From the NCBI RefSeq assembly GCF_057098645.1, contig NZ_CM169472.1: a DNA stretch of 64,000 nucleotides; one strand, 5' to 3'. Positions 3,001 to 9,000 of the stretch are shown one piece after another. Position numbers: made by a program. Within the stretch, counting starts at the first letter, position 1; the number at the start of each line of letters is the position of its first letter.

Positions 3001-6000
3001 TTAACTGCCAGTGGCAACACTCACCCTAAATTTACGCGCGGTGATATTTACCGCGACCAGTACGGCGGCACGGTAATGATTAAGGGCGTGGCGGGACGGT
3101 GCGTAACTTACCGCCGTGAAGGTTACGAATATGATTGCGTGATGCCTGTTTATCAGTTCCGGCGTGATTTTTCTCTGGTACAGACCGCGCCGCATAACGT
3201 GCCCACCAGCAACGCCAGGGCACGGGCAAACATCCAGAAGCTGAAAACCATGATTAACGGATTCAGGGGCAAGAAATGAAAAGCGCACCGAACTTAAAAA
3301 AACAGCCTTACGACAAGATGACCGAAGTCATTATTTTTGCGGGTAGTGATGCCTGGGCACATGCGAAACAGTGGCAGGAACAGGACGGGCGACTGGCTGG
3401 CGATAATGTGCCTCCCGTTGTGCTGGCTGATGATCAACTGGATGAACTGGCAGACCTGATAATCATCGACGAGGGGCGCTATTGTGTCCGGCTGTACAAG
3501 GCAGGCCACATCAGGCCATCAAATATTAATGCCATTGCGCACAAGCTGGCGGCGGCGGGTGTAACTGATGCGAATTATTACCCCGAAGGGATGCACAGCC
3601 ATATGCGGGAGAACTGGCGCGAATACCTGGAACGGGTGCGCGGGAAAGAGCCGGCGGAAGAAAAAAACCACCAGCGAAAAACCACGCTACCGATGAGCGT
3701 TGGATCTACCGGATACGACACGCAACTGGATTACGTGGTTAAGGGGATTATTCCGGCGGTATCGCTATGCAGCATATACGGGGCTAGCGGGTCCTATAAA
3801 TCATTCCTTGCCGGATCGTGGGCGTGCCATGTTGCCACTGGTCGCCAGTGGGGAGGCCGCAGGGTTGCACATGGTGCGGTTCTCTATGTGGTTGGTGAAG
3901 GCGGTATAGGTGTTCCGCGTCGTGTAAAAGCCTGGGAGGTTGTGCACGATGAGCAGGTGAAAAATCTGTATCTGGTAAACCGCCCCATCTTTCCGGCTGC
4001 CCCGCTTGATGTTGATGAAATGGTTATCGCTGCCCGTCAGGTGGAGCGGGAAACGGGTAAACCTGTACGCATGATTATTCTGGATACGCTGGCGCGTTGC
4101 TTTGGTGGGAATGATGAAAATGATTCCCGTGATATGGGGGCGTTTATCCGTGGTTGTGACGAACTGAAACGACGCACAGGGGCCACGGTGCTGGTGGTTC
4201 ACCATTCCGGCAAGGATGAGACGAAAGGCGCGCGCGGTTCCAGTGCATTTCGTGCTTCGCTGGATGCTGAATACCGGATACGCAGGGAGGACGCAGGAAG
4301 CGAAGCGCTGGTTATCTCATGCACCAAAATGAAGGACGCGGAGGAACTCAAAGAAGCCGCATATGACTTACGCGTGGTGGAGCTTTTTACCGACGCTGAC
4401 GGTGAATTAATCACGTCGCTGGTGGTGGTGGATGATCCGCGCCCTCCTGTTGAACTGGAGCGCATCGAGGAGGCAGGGAACAAGACGGAAAACCATACCG
4501 CGCTATGGCAGTGCATCAGAACACGAACAGCACACGGGGAGGCGTGCACTATCGCCCTTCTCCGCGACGATATGAAAAAGCTGGGGTATGAGATGAAGCA
4601 CTTCCGGCGCTGGCTGTACAAGCTGGAAAATGATGGCGTAATCGTTATTGACGGTGATGACGTGCGCCCGCTGTAAAAAGTGGGGAGTAAAAGTGGGGAG
4701 AGCGGGGAATTTAACAAAATTGAAACATAATTACCCACTTTCCCACCTGTATATACCCAAAAAAGTGGGGAGTAAAAAATATATTGAAAAACATCACGTT
4801 AGAATCACAAAAAAAAGAGGTGGGGAGACGGTGGGTAATTTCAAAAAGTGGGGAGCAAAAGTGGGGAGTAGTGGGGAATGAACAGAAAAACCAGAGATAA
4901 GACAGCGCCAAAATATAAAGCGTTAGACATGACTGAGCACACCTTAAAGGTGGCAATCAGAACGATAGACCGCCACACGCGGGAAGGATACGCGAAGGAA
5001 CATCCCGACCTGATAAGCGCATTCATGACCACGGCGGCGGCAAACTTTGCCACGCTGACAGAACGGGAGATTGCCGAAGCGGAACAGGTAACAACCATCA
5101 ACGTTAAAACCGGAGAGGTGGAATTATGACGGCACAGATAGCCGCTTACGGGCGGCTGGTGGACGACCCGCAGGTAAAACAGACCAGCAAGGGCACACCG
5201 ATGACGCTGGCGCGTATGGCGGTATCTTTGCCATGCAGCCAGGCACAGGACGGACAGGCGACGTTATGGTTATCGGTCATCGCATTTGGCAAACAGGCCG
5301 ACTTCCTGGCTAAACATCAAAAAGGCGATGTTGCCAGCGTATCCGGCACGATGCAGGTCAGCCAGTGGACCGGACAGAACGGAGAAACGCGGCAGGGCTG
5401 GCAGGTTATCGCAGACAGCGTAATCAGTGCCCGCGCGGCACGTCCAGGCGGGAACAGACGCAAAACCACAGGCACACAGGGTAATCAGCCACCAGCGGGA
5501 GGCGATGACCCTTACGGTGATGATATTTCGTTCTGAGGGGGTGACGATGGTACATGACCGCATAGCGGAGGAACTGGAGGCGAAAGGCTTTTACCGGAGG
5601 GCGGCGGCGCGATGGGGTGAAGTCATGCAGCTGGTGGAGACAGACAAGGAACGGCATCATATCACGATGCGACGGCTGGAATGTTCCAGGAAGGCACAGA
5701 GGCCACCGGAGCCGCCGGATAATTACGGAGACCTGAAAAAGGCGGTCGATCGCACTTATGCCGAAATGGGTATGGATGGTGCTGGTGATGAAATATGGCG
5801 AAATTACCAGGACAGATAATCACACAGCCGGAGCAATCCGGCTTTTTGTCATGTTTTGTAAATTATTTGTTCGTGGTTGTTCCACGTTGTTCACTGAGTG
5901 GATCGGCATATTTTACCCGAACTGAATCATGATTATTCTCGCCCGTGGTGCCAGGACGCTGGGGCCATTTTCCCGCCTGTTAATGTGCTCGCCAATATTC

Positions 6001-9000
6001 ATTACCAGGCGGGAAAACGATCGGTGCGATTACTGATTTCCTTATGAAAAACGGTTGAGTGTTTGCCGCGTCCTGGAGTTCCTTACTTAACCCCAGGACT
6101 TTTTTTTATGCCGAGAATAATCGAATTACGCCAGCAGAAAACCGCCATTAAAAATCAGATGCGCGACATGCTGGAGAACGCGGAAAAAGAAAACCGCAGC
6201 CTTAACGATGCAGAGGGCGCAAAATTTGACGAATTACGCGCTAAAGCTGAATCCCTCGATAAAGACATTTCCCGCCTTGAAGCCATTGCAGACGAAGAGC
6301 GCAGCAAGCCAGGTAAAAGCAGTCAGACCACTGACCCCGCAGAACTCCGCAACTACATTCTGACAGGTGAAACCCGCGCATTAAGTACAGGCGTTCCCGC
6401 TGATGGTGGTTATACCGTTATCCCTGAACTGAACACCGAAATCATGCGAATGCTGGCGGATGAATCCACCATGCGCCGCATCTGTACCGTGAAGAAAATC
6501 AGCAGCAACGAGTTTAAGCAGCTTGTTTCCGCTGGCGGTGCGACCGTTAACCACGGTGAAGAGGGTAAGGCACGCGAACAGACCAGCACCCCGCAGATTA
6601 ACGAGGTGAGCATCAAGCTGTATCCGGTCTATGCGTACCCGCGCACCACACAGGAAATCGTGGATTTTTCCGATGTGGACATCCTTTCATGGCTGACGGG
6701 TGAGATTGGCGACACCTTCACGGAAACCGAAGAAAGCGATCTGGTTGTGGGCGACGGTGACAAAAAAGCAAAAGGTTTTTTATCCGTACCCCGTGCAGAG
6801 AAGAACGACAAAGAGCGTGATTTTGGTACGTTGCAGGTAATTAAACCTTCCGAATCTCTGGCGTGGACATCTGCGGACCCGCTGATCGACCTGAAATTTG
6901 CATTACGTAAAAAATACCGCAAAAACGCGGTCTGGGTGGTTAACTCCACGACGGCGGCAAAACTTCAGAAGGTGAAGAACGCGAACGGTGATTATATCTG
7001 GCGCGACCGTTTACAGGCGGGTGATCCTGATACGTTGCTGGGCCTTCCGGTCGAATATCTGGAGTTTATGCCTGATAACGTTATTGCCCTGGGTGACTTC
7101 AAACGCGGTTACTACATTGTTGATCACGAAACAGGTGTTCGCACCAGACCGGACAACCTGACAGAACCAGGATTCATCAAAATTTTCACGCAAAAATATT
7201 TAGGCGGTGGCGTGGTGGATTCGAACGCGATCAAGATTCTGGAACTGCCGGAAGACGACGATTAACAGCATACAGAAGGGGCTTAAAAGCCCCTTTAGTG
7301 TTTTATGGGTGAAAAAATTATGAAGAGTATGGAAATCCGGTCATCGGAAATCACCACCAGCGCCAGCAACACGCTTACAGGCTACGTTGTTCGCTGGGAT
7401 AACCTTTCTGATCTGCTATGGGGTGAGTTTTACGAAAAATTCCAGCGGGGAGCGTTTACTGAATGGCTTGCGGCGGGTAATGACGTTCGCGGCCTGTATG
7501 AGCATGACCACAGCATGTTACTGGGGCGCACCCGTTCCGGCACGCTGAAACTGGAAGAGGACGAAACAGGGTTACGCTTTGAACTGACCCCACCGGATAC
7601 CAGTACAGGGCGCGACGTTATCGAACTGGTTAAGCGTGGGGACATCTCGGGGATGAGCTTTGGCTTTCGCTCCCGTAAGGATGTATGGGATACCACAACA
7701 GATCCATGCGTGCGCACCGTGCTGGTGGCGGAACTGTACGAAATTACCGTTACATCGGTACCGGCTTACCCCGATTCCGGCGTGGAGCTGGCCCGCCGTT
7801 CCCTGTATGAGCAGCACCCCGAAAAAATGCCGCGTGCGGATAATCGCCGCTGGTGGGCGGATTTAGCGGGGGTGTGATATGTGGCCTTTCAGAAGAAAAA
7901 AAGAGCAGCGCAGCATGACGCTTGATGAGTTTATGGCGCTGGCTGGCACATCGAACACGGGGGCGGGTGAGTACGTATCATCGGGGACAGCGGAATCACT
8001 GCCCGCCGTCATGAACGCCGTCACGGTCATCTCTGAGGCGGTGGCTACCATGCCGTGTTACCTGTACCTGGTACGCAATGAGAAGGGGAAGGAGGCCCGA
8101 GAGTGGCTTGATTCTCATCCGGTCGATCACATCCTCAACGAGCGCCCGAACGCGTGGCAGACTCCCTACCAGTTTAAGCGAATGATGATCCGCCACTGCC
8201 TGTTAAACGGTAATGCTTATGCGGTGATTCAGTGGGGGCGTGATGGTTTTCCGGTGGCTTTACATCCTTACCCGCCGCAGTCGGTGAACGTGGAGCAGAC
8301 AGGCGAACACAACTGGCGCTACTGCATCACTGACGCCTACACCGGAAACACCCGCAACTATTTACCGTGGGAGGTTCTCCACCTTCGTTACTCCACGGAT
8401 GACGGTTTTATGGGGCGCTCACCTGTAACCATCTGCCGCGAATCGCTGGGGCTTGGGCTGGCCCAACAACGCCACGGCGCGAGCGTGATGCGTGATGGCA
8501 TGATGGCGGCAGGGGTTATCACGTCAGGCGAATGGCTGGACGGCGTGAAGGGCAAACAGGCATTAGCCGCACTGGAACGCTACAAAGGGGCCAGAAACGC
8601 CGGAAAAACGCCCATCCTTGAAGGGGGTATGAGCTATCAGCAGCTGGGCATGAGTAATCAGGATGCTGAATGGCTGGCCTCCCGTCGCTTCACCATTGAA
8701 GACATCGCCCGAATGTTCAACGTCTCGCCGATTTTTTTGCAGGAATACAGCAACAGCACCTACAGCAATTTCAGCGAGGCAAGCCGCGCATTTCTCACCA
8801 TGACGATGCGCCCGTGGCTGGCGAACTTTGAGCAGCAGATAAAAAACGCCCTGCTGGTGGCCTCGCCTGTACCTGGTATCCGGTATCAGGTGGAGTTTGA
8901 CAGCGCGGACCTGTTACGGGCCACACCTGGCGAACGCTTTGCCACCTATGAACGCGGCATCAAATCCGGCGTTATGTGCCCGAACGAAGCCCGCGAACGT

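What the first reader, a model, noticed from the sequence alone, without database searches (positions are those of the whole stretch)
5950..6107. Terminator/antiterminator-like alternative pairing in the capsid operon leader
Immediately upstream of the capsid ATG there is a terminator-like hairpin (GTCCTGG...CCAGGAC, 6070-6099) followed by T8. Its 5' arm (GCGTCCTGG, 6068-6076) is also perfectly complementary over 9 bp to CCAGGACGC at 5951-5959, with a 12-bp hairpin (5968-5979 / 6006-6017) nested between. The two pairings are mutually exclusive. That is the layout of an attenuator that could gate expression of the whole morphogenesis operon.
Basis: seen in the sequence. Interest (0 to 1): 0.6.

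Follow-up and report, generated by a model that had tools for sequence, protein, structure and literature searches.

The report
Switch-like leader RNA before capsid operon
The untranslated stretch in front of the capsid gene of this phage satellite island folds into a conserved RNA that can adopt two mutually exclusive shapes, one of which hides the ribosome-binding site inside a terminator-like hairpin, so it probably acts as an on/off gate for capsid production, but what flips it is unknown.

Summary
The 9-bp match to the terminator's 5' arm is unlikely by chance (3 of 5000 shuffles).

The island is a capsid-forming PICI related to EcCIEDL933.

- CCAGGACGC is itself locked in a stable 5'-terminal hairpin, P1 (5945-5968, GACG loop).
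- The terminator's 3' arm holds the only Shine-Dalgarno (AGGA 6095-6098).
- A positionally conserved sigma-70 promoter would start the transcript at P1.

A widespread "type A" leader in other Enterobacterales cf-PICIs shares P1 and P2, both with compensatory changes. It also shares the competing long-range and RBS-occluding pairings, but has no U-tract. Two unrelated leader types repeat the same three-element logic.

The conserved function is therefore most likely gating of translation initiation. Termination at T7-8 looks like an addition specific to the E. coli variant.

- Nascent RNA favours the long-range pairing; full-length RNA favours P1 plus the terminator by 8-9 kcal/mol.
- Within the E. 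coli variant the arms are invariant, so covariation cannot be tested there.
- No sensor was found: no conserved leader peptide and no Rfam match.

Verdict: a real new family of cis-regulatory leader RNAs of a known mechanistic kind. The attenuator reading is partly supported.

The parts
5826..5849 (+). Intrinsic terminator (T1) that ends the upstream PerC-containing operon
   Evidence: Terminator scan: 7-bp stem, 5 G-C pairs, 4-nt loop, tail TTTTTGT. It is conserved in close relatives.
5855..5892 (+). Conserved upstream promoter module: TTTGTAAATTATTTGT, followed by three TTGTTC copies at 5867, 5877 and 5887 in 10-bp phase. It is probably a binding site for an unidentified activator.
   Evidence: There is one exact copy in the window. 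The module occupies the same relative position in almost all Enterobacterales cf-PICI capsid promoters. The activator function is inferred.
5912..5939 (+). Putative sigma-70 promoter of the capsid operon: -35 TTTACC (5912-5917), 16-nt spacer, -10 TATTCT (5934-5939). The predicted start is about 5945-5947.
   Evidence: The same geometry (TTTACA/TTTNCN, 16 nt, TATNNT, 5 nt, first base of P1) is found in all 41 type A leaders listed and in type B. The promoter scan did not list it because it matches only 8 of 12 consensus positions. The start site is inferred, not mapped.
5945..5968 (+). P1, the 5'-terminal hairpin GUGGU-G-CCAG-GACG-CUGG-G-GCCAU. It sequesters the antiterminator strand.
   Evidence: It appears in the MFE fold and is worth -14.3 kcal/mol alone. 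The covariance model built from type A aligns to it. In type A, 3 of its 9 pairs show compensatory changes and 99.7% of cells are paired.
5951..5959 (+). X, CCAGGACGC: the strand complementary to X'. It mimics the SD-containing 3' arm CCAGGAC.
   Evidence: It is invariant in all type B variants.
5968..6017 (+). P2, a nested hairpin with a 12-bp perfect base that extends to arms of about 17 bp
   Evidence: -23.5 kcal/mol. The homologous helix in type A has compensatory changes in 8 of 9 pairs. The apical loop differs between sublineages B1 and B2 while the stem is kept.
6019..6038 (+). P3, a weak hairpin with three G-U pairs, lying in a poorly conserved linker
   Evidence: It is worth -5.6 kcal/mol. 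The sequence is replaced by a different small hairpin in B2. It is probably not essential.
6065..6076 (+). X', GCC-GCGTCCTGG: the shared strand. It pairs either with X (5951-5959, plus GGC 5963-5965) or with the 3' arm at 6093-6099.
   Evidence: It is invariant in B1 and B2 even though 6065-6069 lies outside the terminator stem. The single variant, C6066T, keeps a G-U pair.
6070..6099 (+). OFF hairpin, which looks like a terminator stem and sequesters the ribosome-binding site
   Evidence: the repeat finder pair I4; -12.7 kcal/mol. Base-pair probability is 0.998 in the full-length ensemble. The loop sequence has diverged in B2 while the stem is kept.
6095..6098 (+). Shine-Dalgarno AGGA, 9 nt before the AUG, inside the 3' arm of the hairpin
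   Evidence: Read from the sequence. There is no other purine-rich motif between 6077 and 6107.
6100..6107 (+). U-tract: T8 here, T7 in many relatives
   Evidence: It is absent from type A, D and E leaders.
6108..7265 (+). Major capsid protein gene (HK97-type), the first gene of the morphogenesis and packaging operon
   Evidence: PHROG phrog_10, E = 3e-88. RefSeq annotates the same start codon in EDL933. The N-terminus aligns with homologues from residue 1.

Best explanation
The 5' untranslated leader of the cf-PICI capsid operon (about 5945-6107) is a cis-acting RNA with two states.

OFF state:
- The 5'-terminal hairpin P1 locks up CCAGGACGC.
- GCGTCCTGG then pairs with CCAGGAC (6093-6099).
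- This buries the Shine-Dalgarno AGGA in a hairpin that, in this E. coli variant, is followed by U7-8.
- Transcripts are therefore terminated before the capsid gene, and any read-through RNA is poorly translated.

ON state:
- CCAGGACGC leaves P1 and pairs with GCGTCCTGG: 9 bp plus a GGC:GCC extension, enclosing P2.
- This removes the terminator stem and frees the ribosome-binding site.

What is shown:
- The helices exist and exclude one another.
- P1 and P2 are conserved and covary in homologues.
- The same bistable energy pattern is seen in type A and type B leaders.
- The SD lies inside the hairpin.

What is inferred:
- The transcription start at P1.
- That termination really happens at the U-tract.
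- That the default path is OFF.
- That something made after induction opens P1. This could be a protein, an RNA or altered elongation kinetics, possibly starting from the GACG loop pairing with CGTC. The trigger is not identified.
For: - **Anatomy and non-randomness.** (3 of 5000 shuffles).
- **Energetics in the window.** In nascent RNA ending at 6080-6092 the X:X' fold is the MFE, -53.0 against -48.8 kcal/mol with P1 kept. Full-length RNA prefers P1 plus the terminator by 8-9 kcal/mol.
- **Energetics in type A.** All 24 type A leaders show the same signature. The long-range fold is within 0.4 kcal/mol of the nascent MFE on average, and the OFF fold is favoured by 6.5 kcal/mol in full-length RNA.
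- **Homology.** A covariance model built only from type A aligns P1 and P2 onto window 5942-6017 at 22.8 bits.
- **Covariation in 44 type A sequences.**
  - P1 is 99.7% paired, with 3 compensated pairs.
  - P2 has 8 of 9 pairs compensated.
  - The long-range helix is 98.1% paired, with one double change and three one-sided changes that keep pairing.
- **Yersinia L118.** One base changed in the P1 5' arm, one in the P1 3' arm and one in the downstream strand. Both alternative helices are preserved.
- **Invariant unpaired bases.** Bases that are unpaired in P1 (the GACG loop and the CC bulge) are invariant, and they are paired in the long-range fold.
- **Selection in type B.** Paired elements are 90% identical between sublineages against 40% elsewhere, p = 7e-12. 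No polymorphism was found in X, the P1 inner 3' arm or X' across about 24 B1 variants. GCC 6065-6067 lies outside the terminator stem but is conserved.
- **Independent recurrence.** The three-element logic (5' mimic, anti-RBS strand, start region) recurs in unrelated leaders D and E.
- **Promoter geometry.** It places the 5' end at P1 in every type A and type B leader examined.
Against: - No compensatory change can be scored for X:X' or X':X'' within type B, because both strands are invariant.
- For the type A long-range helix only one double change exists.
- Type A, D and E leaders lack a U-tract, so termination is not a family-wide function.
- The findpath barrier from P1 to the long-range fold is 17-21 kcal/mol. 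Spontaneous switching during transcription therefore looks too slow, and the model needs a trigger I could not find.
- There is no conserved leader ORF; the mini-ORF 6044-6058 has no SD and is absent in B2.
- No Rfam family matches, even at E <= 10.
- No second copy of the 9-mer exists elsewhere in the window.
- The strand of P1 used for the long-range helix differs between types: the 5' arm in B and the 3' arm in A. Only the GACG:CGTC core is common to both.
- There is no experimental evidence for a 5' end, a 3' end or regulation. The cf-PICI papers I searched do not mention a promoter or terminator here.
Confidence: 0.5

Rival explanations
1. This is a purely translational operator. The hairpin 6070-6099 serves only to mask the SD, and the competition between P1/X and X' tunes or times ribosome loading. 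For example, translation might be possible only on nascent RNA before the OFF fold forms. Under this view the T8 run is an SD-AUG spacer or a U-rich translational enhancer and causes no meaningful termination.
For: - The SD lies inside the 3' arm.
- Homologous type A leaders and the unrelated type D and E leaders occlude the start region with no U-tract.
- The geometry AGGA-N9-AUG, or N8 in T7 variants, is normal for an SD.
- Nascent-RNA folds leave the start region free in both type A and type B.
Against: - A stem of 7 + 3 bp followed directly by eight U residues has the canonical form of an intrinsic terminator.
- Both type B sublineages keep the stem plus U7-8 even though the loop has been rewritten.
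- Such a hairpin would be expected to terminate at least part of transcription in E. coli. That expectation rests on my own knowledge of intrinsic terminators and was not measured here.
Confidence: 0.2
2. This is an ordinary leader terminator that keeps the late operon silent and is overridden by a processive antitermination factor. Candidate factors are a Q-like protein or an RNA such as HK022 put. The 9-bp complementarity would then be a by-product of the sequence similarity between P1 and the terminator arms.
For: - The layout of promoter, roughly 160-nt leader, terminator, then first late gene resembles lambda PR'-tR' and the P. aeruginosa alpB promoter and tB terminator.
- Many related islands carry another hairpin plus T-run just upstream of the -10.
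- A further terminator-like hairpin follows the capsid gene at 7275-7296.
- P1 and P2 are two adjacent stem-loops at the 5' end of the transcript, a layout that superficially recalls put RNA. That comparison is from my own memory and was not tested.
Against: - The promoter spacer, where Q and P. aeruginosa AlpA bind, is not conserved among leaders.
- The island's AlpA is a 62-aa PF05930 protein. The P. aeruginosa antiterminator AlpA is an eight-helix protein with a Q21-like fold, so the shared name is no evidence of shared function.
- Type A has no leader terminator to override, yet it keeps P1, P2 and the long-range helix, including the Yersinia triple change.
Confidence: 0.12
3. This is a static structured 5' UTR. 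P1 would be a 5'-terminal stem-loop that protects the mRNA from 5'-end-dependent decay, and P2 and the last hairpin would set a fixed translation level. No switching would occur, and the alternative pairing would never be populated in vivo.
For: - P1 begins at the predicted 5' end.
- The OFF fold dominates the equilibrium ensemble, with pair probability 0.998 against about 0 for X:X'.
- The computed refolding barrier is high.
Against: - Bases unpaired in the static fold are invariant: the GACG loop, the CC bulge and GCC 6065-6067.
- The downstream strand changed together with P1 in Yersinia.
- The three-element layout recurs in unrelated leaders.
- A permanently masked SD in front of the most abundantly needed protein of the particle would be odd.
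Confidence: 0.1
4. This is not an RNA element. The inverted repeats would be DNA sites such as an operator, a cos or pac site, or an origin, or they would be coincidence.
For: The repeats are inverted repeats at DNA level too, and a conserved protein-binding module lies just upstream (5855-5892).
Against: - The P2 sequence is free to vary while its pairing is kept, in 8 of 9 pairs. That pattern marks a folded single strand, not an operator.
- The elements lie between a promoter and a start codon, on the transcribed strand.
- HNH and terS, where cos is expected, lie about 4 kb downstream.
- Shuffling tests argue against chance.
Confidence: 0.03

Closest known systems
Classical terminator/antiterminator attenuators (trp-type leaders and riboswitch or T-box expression platforms)
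   Same: An upstream strand competes with the 3' arm for the 5' arm of a hairpin followed by a U-tract, immediately before the first gene of an operon. The upstream pairing is favoured in the nascent RNA and the terminator in the complete RNA.
   Different: - No sensor was found: no conserved leader peptide, no known aptamer and no Rfam match.
- The antiterminator strand is itself pre-locked in a hairpin.
- The terminator arm carries the SD.
- Homologous leaders lack the U-tract.
SD-sequestering translational leaders whose folding is kinetically controlled, such as the 5' leader of the MS2 maturation gene, and anti-sequestor designs in translational riboswitches (from my own knowledge)
   Same: The ribosome-binding site is paired in the equilibrium fold but free in the nascent fold. 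An upstream complementary strand decides which fold forms. This feature is shared by type A and B leaders and by the unrelated D and E leaders.
   Different: In this window the sequestering hairpin also has a perfect U-tract. The element heads a DNA satellite's late operon. No homology to any of these RNAs was detected.
Late-operon leader terminators overridden by promoter-loaded antiterminators (lambda Q at PR'-tR'; P. aeruginosa AlpA at PalpB-tB, PMC7969949 and PMC9371919)
   Same: A promoter, a short leader and an intrinsic terminator directly upstream of the first late gene. The island encodes a protein that is also called AlpA.
   Different: There is no conserved element in the promoter spacer. 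The island's AlpA is a 62-aa PF05930 protein, not the eight-helix Q21-like protein. The conserved competing RNA helices have no counterpart in those systems.
HK022 put RNA (cis-acting antiterminator RNA made of two stem-loops; from my own knowledge)
   Same: Two adjacent stem-loops (P1 and P2, with 0-3 nt between them) lie near the 5' end of a phage-type transcript, upstream of terminators.
   Different: No sequence or structure comparison was possible. The HK022 record carries no put annotation and Rfam gave no match. The put mechanism needs no pairing with the terminator, whereas here there is direct complementarity to the terminator arm.
Satellite phage P4 immunity (CI RNA pairing with seqA and seqC to cause premature termination; from my own knowledge)
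   Same: It is a satellite element in which repeated short complementary sequences in a leader control transcription elongation.
   Different: P4 uses a trans-acting processed RNA. Here all three copies lie in cis within 160 nt, and no further copy exists in the window.

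Membership tests
Intrinsic (Rho-independent) terminator | G+C-rich hairpin immediately followed by a run of U | tested here: met
   The stem is 7 bp, a 1x1 mismatch and 3 bp, with an 8-nt loop (-12.7 kcal/mol), followed by U8. The strict consensus scan did not list it.
Intrinsic (Rho-independent) terminator | RNA 3' ends are generated at the U-tract in vivo or in vitro | not testable with these tools
   No transcript data were available. The papers I searched give none.
Transcription attenuator (terminator/antiterminator switch) | Mutually exclusive antiterminator and terminator helices that share one strand | tested here: met
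   6070-6076 pairs with either 5951-5957 or 6093-6099. Shuffle test: 3 of 5000.
Transcription attenuator (terminator/antiterminator switch) | The antiterminator can form before the terminator during transcription | tested here: inconclusive
   The X:X' fold is the MFE of RNA ending at 6080-6092. However, X is first trapped in P1, and the pseudoknot-free barrier is 17-21 kcal/mol.
Transcription attenuator (terminator/antiterminator switch) | A sensing device such as a leader peptide, an aptamer or a tRNA- or protein-binding site | tested here: not met
   The only mini-ORF (6044-6058) lacks an SD and is absent in sublineage B2. No Rfam family matches at E <= 10. A protein or RNA partner cannot be excluded.
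Transcription attenuator (terminator/antiterminator switch) | Terminator features conserved in homologous leaders | tested here: not met
   The U-tract is present in both type B sublineages but absent in all 44 type A leaders and in types D and E.
Transcription attenuator (terminator/antiterminator switch) | Covariation that supports both alternative helices | tested here: inconclusive
   In type B both strands are invariant. In type A the long-range helix is 98.1% paired, with one compensated pair and three one-sided changes that keep pairing. The last hairpin is 97.2% paired with only one-sided changes.
SD-sequestering translational riboregulator | The ribosome-binding site lies inside a stable helix | tested here: met
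   AGGA 6095-6098 lies in the 3' arm, with pair probability 0.998. The start region is also occluded in types A, D and E.
SD-sequestering translational riboregulator | An upstream strand that can release the RBS | tested here: met
   X:X' is 9 bp plus a 3-bp extension, with duplex energy -21.9 kcal/mol. Analogous helices exist in types A, D and E.
Any described RNA family (Rfam 15) | A covariance-model match | tested here: not met
   No match in window 1-16000 apart from a chance sRNA hit elsewhere. None in 5840-6140 at E <= 10. None in 20 related loci.
cf-PICI type A capsid leader (family defined here, model R1) | P1 with a GACG loop, followed directly by P2 | tested here: met
   R1 aligns to 5942-6017 at 22.8 bits with filters off. 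The default filters miss it.
cf-PICI type A capsid leader (family defined here, model R1) | The 3' module GGUUUCACGUC...ACGGAAACC | tested here: not met
   The window has a different 3' module, GCGUCCUGG...CCAGGAC-U8. R1 places its 3' end on an unrelated AUGAAA at 6044.
Q / P. aeruginosa AlpA-type processive antitermination | A conserved factor-binding element between -35 and -10, and a Q-like protein | tested here: not met
   Spacer sequences differ among leaders. The island's AlpA is a 62-aa PF05930 protein, whereas the P. aeruginosa protein has eight helices and a Q21-like fold.
HK022 put RNA | Sequence and structure homology to putL or putR | not tested
   The put sites are not annotated in NC_002166. 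I did not locate them.

The most novel reading that the evidence does not exclude
P1-P2 and its partner strand may form a previously undescribed, satellite-specific riboregulator family. It would license capsid production only when a helper-phage-encoded or island-encoded factor, or an infection-specific change in RNA polymerase or ribosome behaviour, opens the invariant GACG hairpin. In uninduced E. coli, the roughly 160-nt leader terminated at U8 would accumulate as a stable RNA ending in a terminator hairpin and U-tail. Such an RNA could act in trans, as terminated PR' leaders of Stx phages do.
Probability: 0.15. Interest if true: 0.75.

Novelty: new variant of a known kind. Interest (0 to 1): 0.5.

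Why it matters
Capsid-forming PICIs make their own capsids and take only tails from helper phages. How their morphogenesis operon is kept silent and then switched on has not been described in the papers I could search.

This work gives that question a concrete handle:
- a positionally conserved promoter;
- an upstream candidate activator site;
- a covarying, bistable leader RNA present in about 7% of complete E. coli genomes (360 of 5426) and, in a sister form, across Proteus, Xenorhabdus, Photorhabdus, Citrobacter, Enterobacter, Serratia, Hafnia, Pantoea, Erwinia, Yersinia and Pectobacterium.

If the switch is real, a handful of point mutations would separate transcriptional from translational control. 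The same mutations would allow a search for the factor that opens P1. If it is not a switch, the element is still a clean new structured-RNA family that annotation pipelines do not cover.

Tried and rejected
1. **Known RNA family.** Three Rfam searches found nothing.
2. **The EHEC sRNA Esr41.** It lies in a different island, OI-43/SpLE1.
3. **Hfq-bound EcOnc sRNAs in Sp7.** The main text and held supplements of PMC4104026 do not mention Sp7, pchE or the neighbouring genes.
4. **More divergent type B leaders for covariation.**
   - A scan for the P2 stem in IMG/VR gave only known islands plus two unrelated GC-rich hits.
   - A metagenome scan anchored on the type B capsid start gave 19 contigs, all B1 or B2.
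   - A distant search of E. coli genomes gave the same two sublineages.
5. **Type A model against the whole window.** The only hit lies inside a LysR-type coding sequence (51609-51713, minus strand) and was rejected as chance.
6. **Leader peptide.** The mini-ORF 6044-6058 has no SD and is not conserved. The 49-aa ORF 5898-6047 spans the promoter and is broken by indels in B2.
7. **PerC, SSB or the 83-aa ORF as a conserved partner.** None has a detectable homologue within 3 kb upstream in 21 type A loci.
8. **AlpA as an antiterminator.** The idea rests only on a shared name with the P. aeruginosa protein.
9. **Presence in true phages.** Type B has no match among 50,697 phage records. Type A matches only three records: one 16.5-kb 'induced prophage', one 3.8-kb fragment and one 106-kb Klebsiella phage record.
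10. **HK022 put comparison.** It could not be made.
11. **cos site or replication origin.** Rejected on position and on the pattern of variation.

Full report
**Context**

The first 13 kb of the window is a capsid-forming phage-inducible chromosomal island (cf-PICI) closely related to EcCIEDL933, also known as OI-51, CP-933C or Sp7.
- It encodes an AlpA protein (880-1065; Pfam PF05930, E = 6e-17), a primase/helicase (3276-4676), an SSB-like protein and a PerC-family protein that ends at 5819.
- After those come an HK97-type major capsid gene (6108-7265), a prohead protease, a portal protein, head-tail connector genes, HNH, TerS and TerL.
- The literature identifies the reference island.
- The finding lies in the 288-bp gap between the PerC gene and the capsid gene.

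**Check of the observation**

- CCAGGACGC at 5951-5959.
- The 12-bp hairpin 5968-5979 / 6006-6017, which extends to 18-nt arms at 94% complementarity.
- GCGTCCTGG at 6068-6076.
- GTCCTGG 6070-6076 pairing with CCAGGAC 6093-6099.
- T8 at 6100-6107 and ATG at 6108.

The repeat finder lists the same pairs independently.

The features exceed chance:
- The 9-mer is unique to these two sites in 64 kb.
- A 9-mer or longer complementary to the region of the terminator's 5' arm arose in only 3 of 5000 dinucleotide shuffles of the upstream 211 nt.
- The leader as a whole folds with z = -3.8 relative to shuffles.

1. The supposed antiterminator strand is not free. CCAG (5951-5954) pairs with CUGG (5959-5962) around a GACG loop, and an outer stem 5945-5949 / 5964-5968 closes the structure. 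This hairpin, P1, is worth -14.3 kcal/mol on its own.
2. The only Shine-Dalgarno sequence for the capsid gene, AGGA at 6095-6098 and 9 nt before the AUG, lies in the 3' arm of the terminator hairpin. That hairpin therefore also masks the ribosome-binding site.
3. The upstream operon has its own clean terminator at 5826-5843. A sigma-70-type promoter then follows: -35 TTTACC 5912-5917, 16 nt, -10 TATTCT 5934-5939, then 5 nt, then the first base of P1. All 41 type A leaders I listed have exactly this geometry. The transcript therefore very probably begins at P1 (about 5945-5947). This start site is inferred, not mapped.

**Relatives**

I fetched capsid homologues with their upstream DNA from IMG/VR and from one genome per GTDB species. 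The leaders fall into five types.
- **Type B.** This is the window's type. It occurs in E. coli only, in 360 of 5426 complete genomes, as two sublineages: B1 (window-like) and B2 (L043, H100, L253).
- **Type A.** It is widespread, occurring in Proteus, Xenorhabdus, Photorhabdus, Citrobacter, Enterobacter, Serratia, Hafnia, Pantoea, Erwinia, Kosakonia, Yersinia and Pectobacterium, plus a group about 75% identical in capsid whose promoter region is nearly identical to the window's. Its layout is:
  - a 5' hairpin GUGGC-A-CUCA-GACG-UGAG-CC-GCCAC;
  - a variable hairpin P2;
  - a strand GCUGGUUUCACGUCU;
  - a last hairpin GGUUUC(A)CGU...ACGGAAACC that ends 5-6 nt before the AUG, with no U-tract.
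- **Type C.** Found in many Xenorhabdus; a 35-45-nt unstructured leader.
- **Types D and E.** Type D occurs in Gilliamella and Frischella, and type E in some Xenorhabdus. Both are unrelated in sequence to types A and B.

**Homology and covariation**

- A covariance model built from 24 type A leaders finds all 44 distinct type A leaders at 79-140 bits.
- With filters off, the same model aligns its P1 and P2 onto window 5942-6017 at 22.8 bits. The 5' half of the window's leader is therefore homologous to type A, while the 3' module is different.
- In type A, P1 is paired in 99.7% of cells with compensatory changes at 3 of 9 pairs. P2 has compensatory changes at 8 of 9 pairs. These are real RNA helices.
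- The type A long-range helix joins the P1 loop, 3' arm and CC bulge to GCUGGUUUCACGUCU over 13 bp. It is paired in 98.1% of cells, with one double change and three one-sided changes that keep pairing.
- The double change is in Yersinia L118. There CUCA-GACG-UGAG became CUCC-GACG-GGAG, and the downstream UCACGUC became UCCCGUC. A single lineage thus adjusted three positions so that both the local helix and the long-range helix survive.
- Bases that are unpaired in P1 yet invariant (the GACG loop and the CC bulge) are paired in the long-range fold. That pairing explains their conservation.

**Type B**

No compensatory test is possible for type B.
- X, the P1 inner 3' arm and X' show no polymorphism in about 24 B1 variants and are identical in B2.
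- Further scans of IMG/VR, metagenomes and E. coli genomes found no third lineage.
- Selection is nevertheless evident. Between B1 and B2 the paired elements are 75/83 identical and the loops and linkers 32/80, Fisher p = 7e-12.
- The P2 apical loop, the linker 6018-6063 and the terminator loop have been rewritten while every stem is kept.
- GCC 6065-6067 lies outside the terminator stem but inside the extended X:X' helix, and it is conserved. Its one variant (C6066T) keeps a G-U pair.

**Energetics**

- For RNA starting at 5947, the full-length MFE is P1 + P2 + (P3) + terminator. Forcing X:X' costs 8-9 kcal/mol and its equilibrium probability is about 0.
- For nascent RNA ending at 6080-6092, before the 3' arm exists, the X:X' fold is the MFE: -53.0 against -48.8 kcal/mol with P1 kept.
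- All 24 type A leaders behave the same way. The long-range fold is within 0.4 kcal/mol of the nascent MFE on average, and the P1-plus-last-hairpin fold is favoured by 6.5 kcal/mol in complete RNA. This shared bistable signature spans two different 3' modules.
- A findpath estimate of the barrier from the P1 state to the X:X' state in nascent RNA is 17-21 kcal/mol. That is too high for spontaneous exchange during the roughly 30 nt of transcription available.
- The estimate cannot represent a pseudoknotted route in which CGUC (6069-6072) first docks on the GACG loop.
- On these numbers the default outcome is OFF, and something must help P1 open.

**Independent recurrence of the logic**

- In type D leaders, a 5' strand (AGCGCAGAUAUGG) and the start region (AGAUAUGAAA) both pair with one middle strand (UUUCAUAUCU(A)CGCUG). 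The duplex energies are -15.6 and -11 kcal/mol.
- In type E leaders, three strands (CAUGUAGG, CCUGCAUG, CCUACAUGCAGAGG) are mutually complementary in the same way.
- Neither type has a U-tract.
- Four leader designs in front of orthologous capsid genes therefore share one layout: a 5' strand that resembles the start region, an anti-start strand, and the start region itself.

This is the main reason I place control of translation initiation at the centre of the explanation. I treat intrinsic termination as an extra layer specific to the E. coli variant, where both sublineages keep the stem plus U7-8.

**Mechanism proposed**

- **OFF state.** P1 holds X, X' pairs with X'', the SD is buried, and in type B RNA polymerase meets a hairpin plus U8 directly before the AUG.
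- **ON state.** X pairs with X', which dissolves the terminator stem and frees AGGA-U8-AUG.
- **Shown.** The helices and their mutual exclusivity, conservation and covariation of P1 and P2, consistency of the competing helices in all homologues, the energy pattern, and the position of the SD.
- **Inferred.** The transcription start, real termination, the default-OFF path, and a trigger.
- **Not found.** Any sensor. There is no conserved leader peptide (the mini-ORF 6044-6058 lacks an SD and is absent in B2), no Rfam match, no additional copy of the 9-mer for a trans RNA, and no conserved neighbouring gene.

I give this composite model 0.5.

**Rivals**

- **Translational operator only (0.2).** All homologues lack a U-tract, and the SD geometry is normal. 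The canonical terminator shape, kept in both sublineages, argues against it.
- **Plain leader terminator overridden by a processive factor (0.12).**
  - The layout resembles lambda PR'-tR' and the P. aeruginosa alpB leader.
  - The promoter spacer is not conserved.
  - The island's AlpA is a 62-aa PF05930 protein, whereas the P. aeruginosa antiterminator is an eight-helix Q21-like protein.
  - Type A keeps the competing helices without any leader terminator.
- **Static stabilising 5' structure (0.1).** This fits the equilibrium ensemble, but not the invariant 'unpaired' bases or the Yersinia triple change.
- **DNA-level site or coincidence (0.03).** The free sequence variation of P2 with pairing retained argues against a DNA site, and the shuffling tests argue against coincidence.

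**Comparison with known systems**

- The element works like a terminator/antiterminator attenuator fused to an SD-sequestering translational leader. Both kinds of mechanism are well known.
- It is not a member of any described RNA family that I could test (Rfam 15).
- It shows none of the defining sensors of classical attenuators.
- The cf-PICI and related papers I could search do not mention a promoter, terminator or leader here.
- Resemblances to HK022 put RNA, to the kinetically controlled MS2 maturation-gene leader and to P4 CI-RNA immunity come from my own knowledge. They were not tested, and the HK022 record carries no put annotation.

**Verdict**

- The element is best described as a new family, or a variant of a known mechanistic kind, of bistable cis-regulatory leader RNAs specific to cf-PICI capsid operons.
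- The E. coli form adds a terminator look to what is probably an ancestral translational gate.
- Interest is moderate (0.5). The structure and conservation are solid, and the regulation of cf-PICI morphogenesis is an open question. However, the switch function and its trigger are unproven, and the mechanism class is familiar.

Noticed in passing
window 7275-7296 (+), tail to about 7306: A terminator-like hairpin (9-bp stem, GAAGGGGCTT AAAA GCCCCTTT) with a T-rich tail sits between the capsid stop codon (7265) and the protease start (7305). It may set the capsid-to-protease/portal ratio by partial termination.
   Followed up: no
window 5855-5892 (+): TTTGTAAATTATTTGT is followed by three TTGTTC copies at exact 10-bp spacing (5867, 5877, 5887). 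The first motif is conserved about 85-95 nt upstream of the -10 in nearly all Enterobacterales cf-PICI capsid promoters, whatever the leader type. It is probably the binding site of an unidentified activator.
   Followed up: partly
window 5931-5941 vs 6112-6122, and 5903-5910 vs 6107-6114: There is perfect 11-bp complementarity between the -10 region (GATTATTCTCG) and capsid codons 2-5 (CGAGAATAATC, which includes the rare codons AGA and AUA). An 8-bp match also spans the AUG. These could pair only in transcripts that start upstream of the capsid promoter, where they would add a further block on translation of read-through RNA. They are only partly conserved in B2 and do not covary in relatives that carry GAGTATT.
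   Followed up: partly
window 6044-6058 (+): A four-codon mini-ORF, ATG AAA AAC GGT TGA, ends 9 nt before X'. It has no Shine-Dalgarno and is absent in sublineage B2, so it is probably meaningless.
   Followed up: yes
loci L044, L100, L106, L107 (Gilliamella/Frischella) and L072, L077, L084 (Xenorhabdus), 120-0 nt upstream of the capsid ATG: These capsid leaders are unrelated in sequence to types A and B but have the same three-strand competition around the start codon. Many other Xenorhabdus islands (for example L059) have only a 35-45-nt unstructured leader.
   Followed up: partly
type A leaders, for example L061:1016-1153, L062, L080, L204: The P1 5' arm GUGGC is also complementary to ACCAC just upstream of the AUG. 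Three of the five leaders with AUGGC in P1 have CCAU at that position. This hints at a third pairing that would close the leader in the ON state.
   Followed up: no
type A leaders with long P2, for example L105:2856-3006, L062, L103, L108: In several genera P2 carries a conserved insertion of two small hairpins (GCUGUA-GCGA-GUACAGC and CUGCG-AGA-CGCAG, the latter with a compensatory CUGA/UCAG variant in L114), followed by an A-rich run. This suggests a more elaborate junction in part of the family.
   Followed up: no
window 51609-51713 (-): The type A covariance model gives a weak hit (13.9 bits, E about 0.07) inside a LysR-type regulator coding sequence (51370-52251, minus strand). I judged it to be chance.
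   Followed up: yes
window 880-1065 (+) and the literature: The island's AlpA is a 62-aa PF05930 protein. The P. aeruginosa 'AlpA' shown to be an antiterminator is described as an eight-helix protein with a Q21-like fold. The shared name should not be read as shared mechanism.
   Followed up: partly
21 type A loci from L055-L120 (including L041), 3 kb upstream of the capsid gene: None of the 21 type A islands with enough flank has a detectable homologue of the window's PerC-like, SSB-like or 83-aa ORF within 3 kb upstream. The promoter and leader travel with the capsid operon, next to a variable region.
   Followed up: yes
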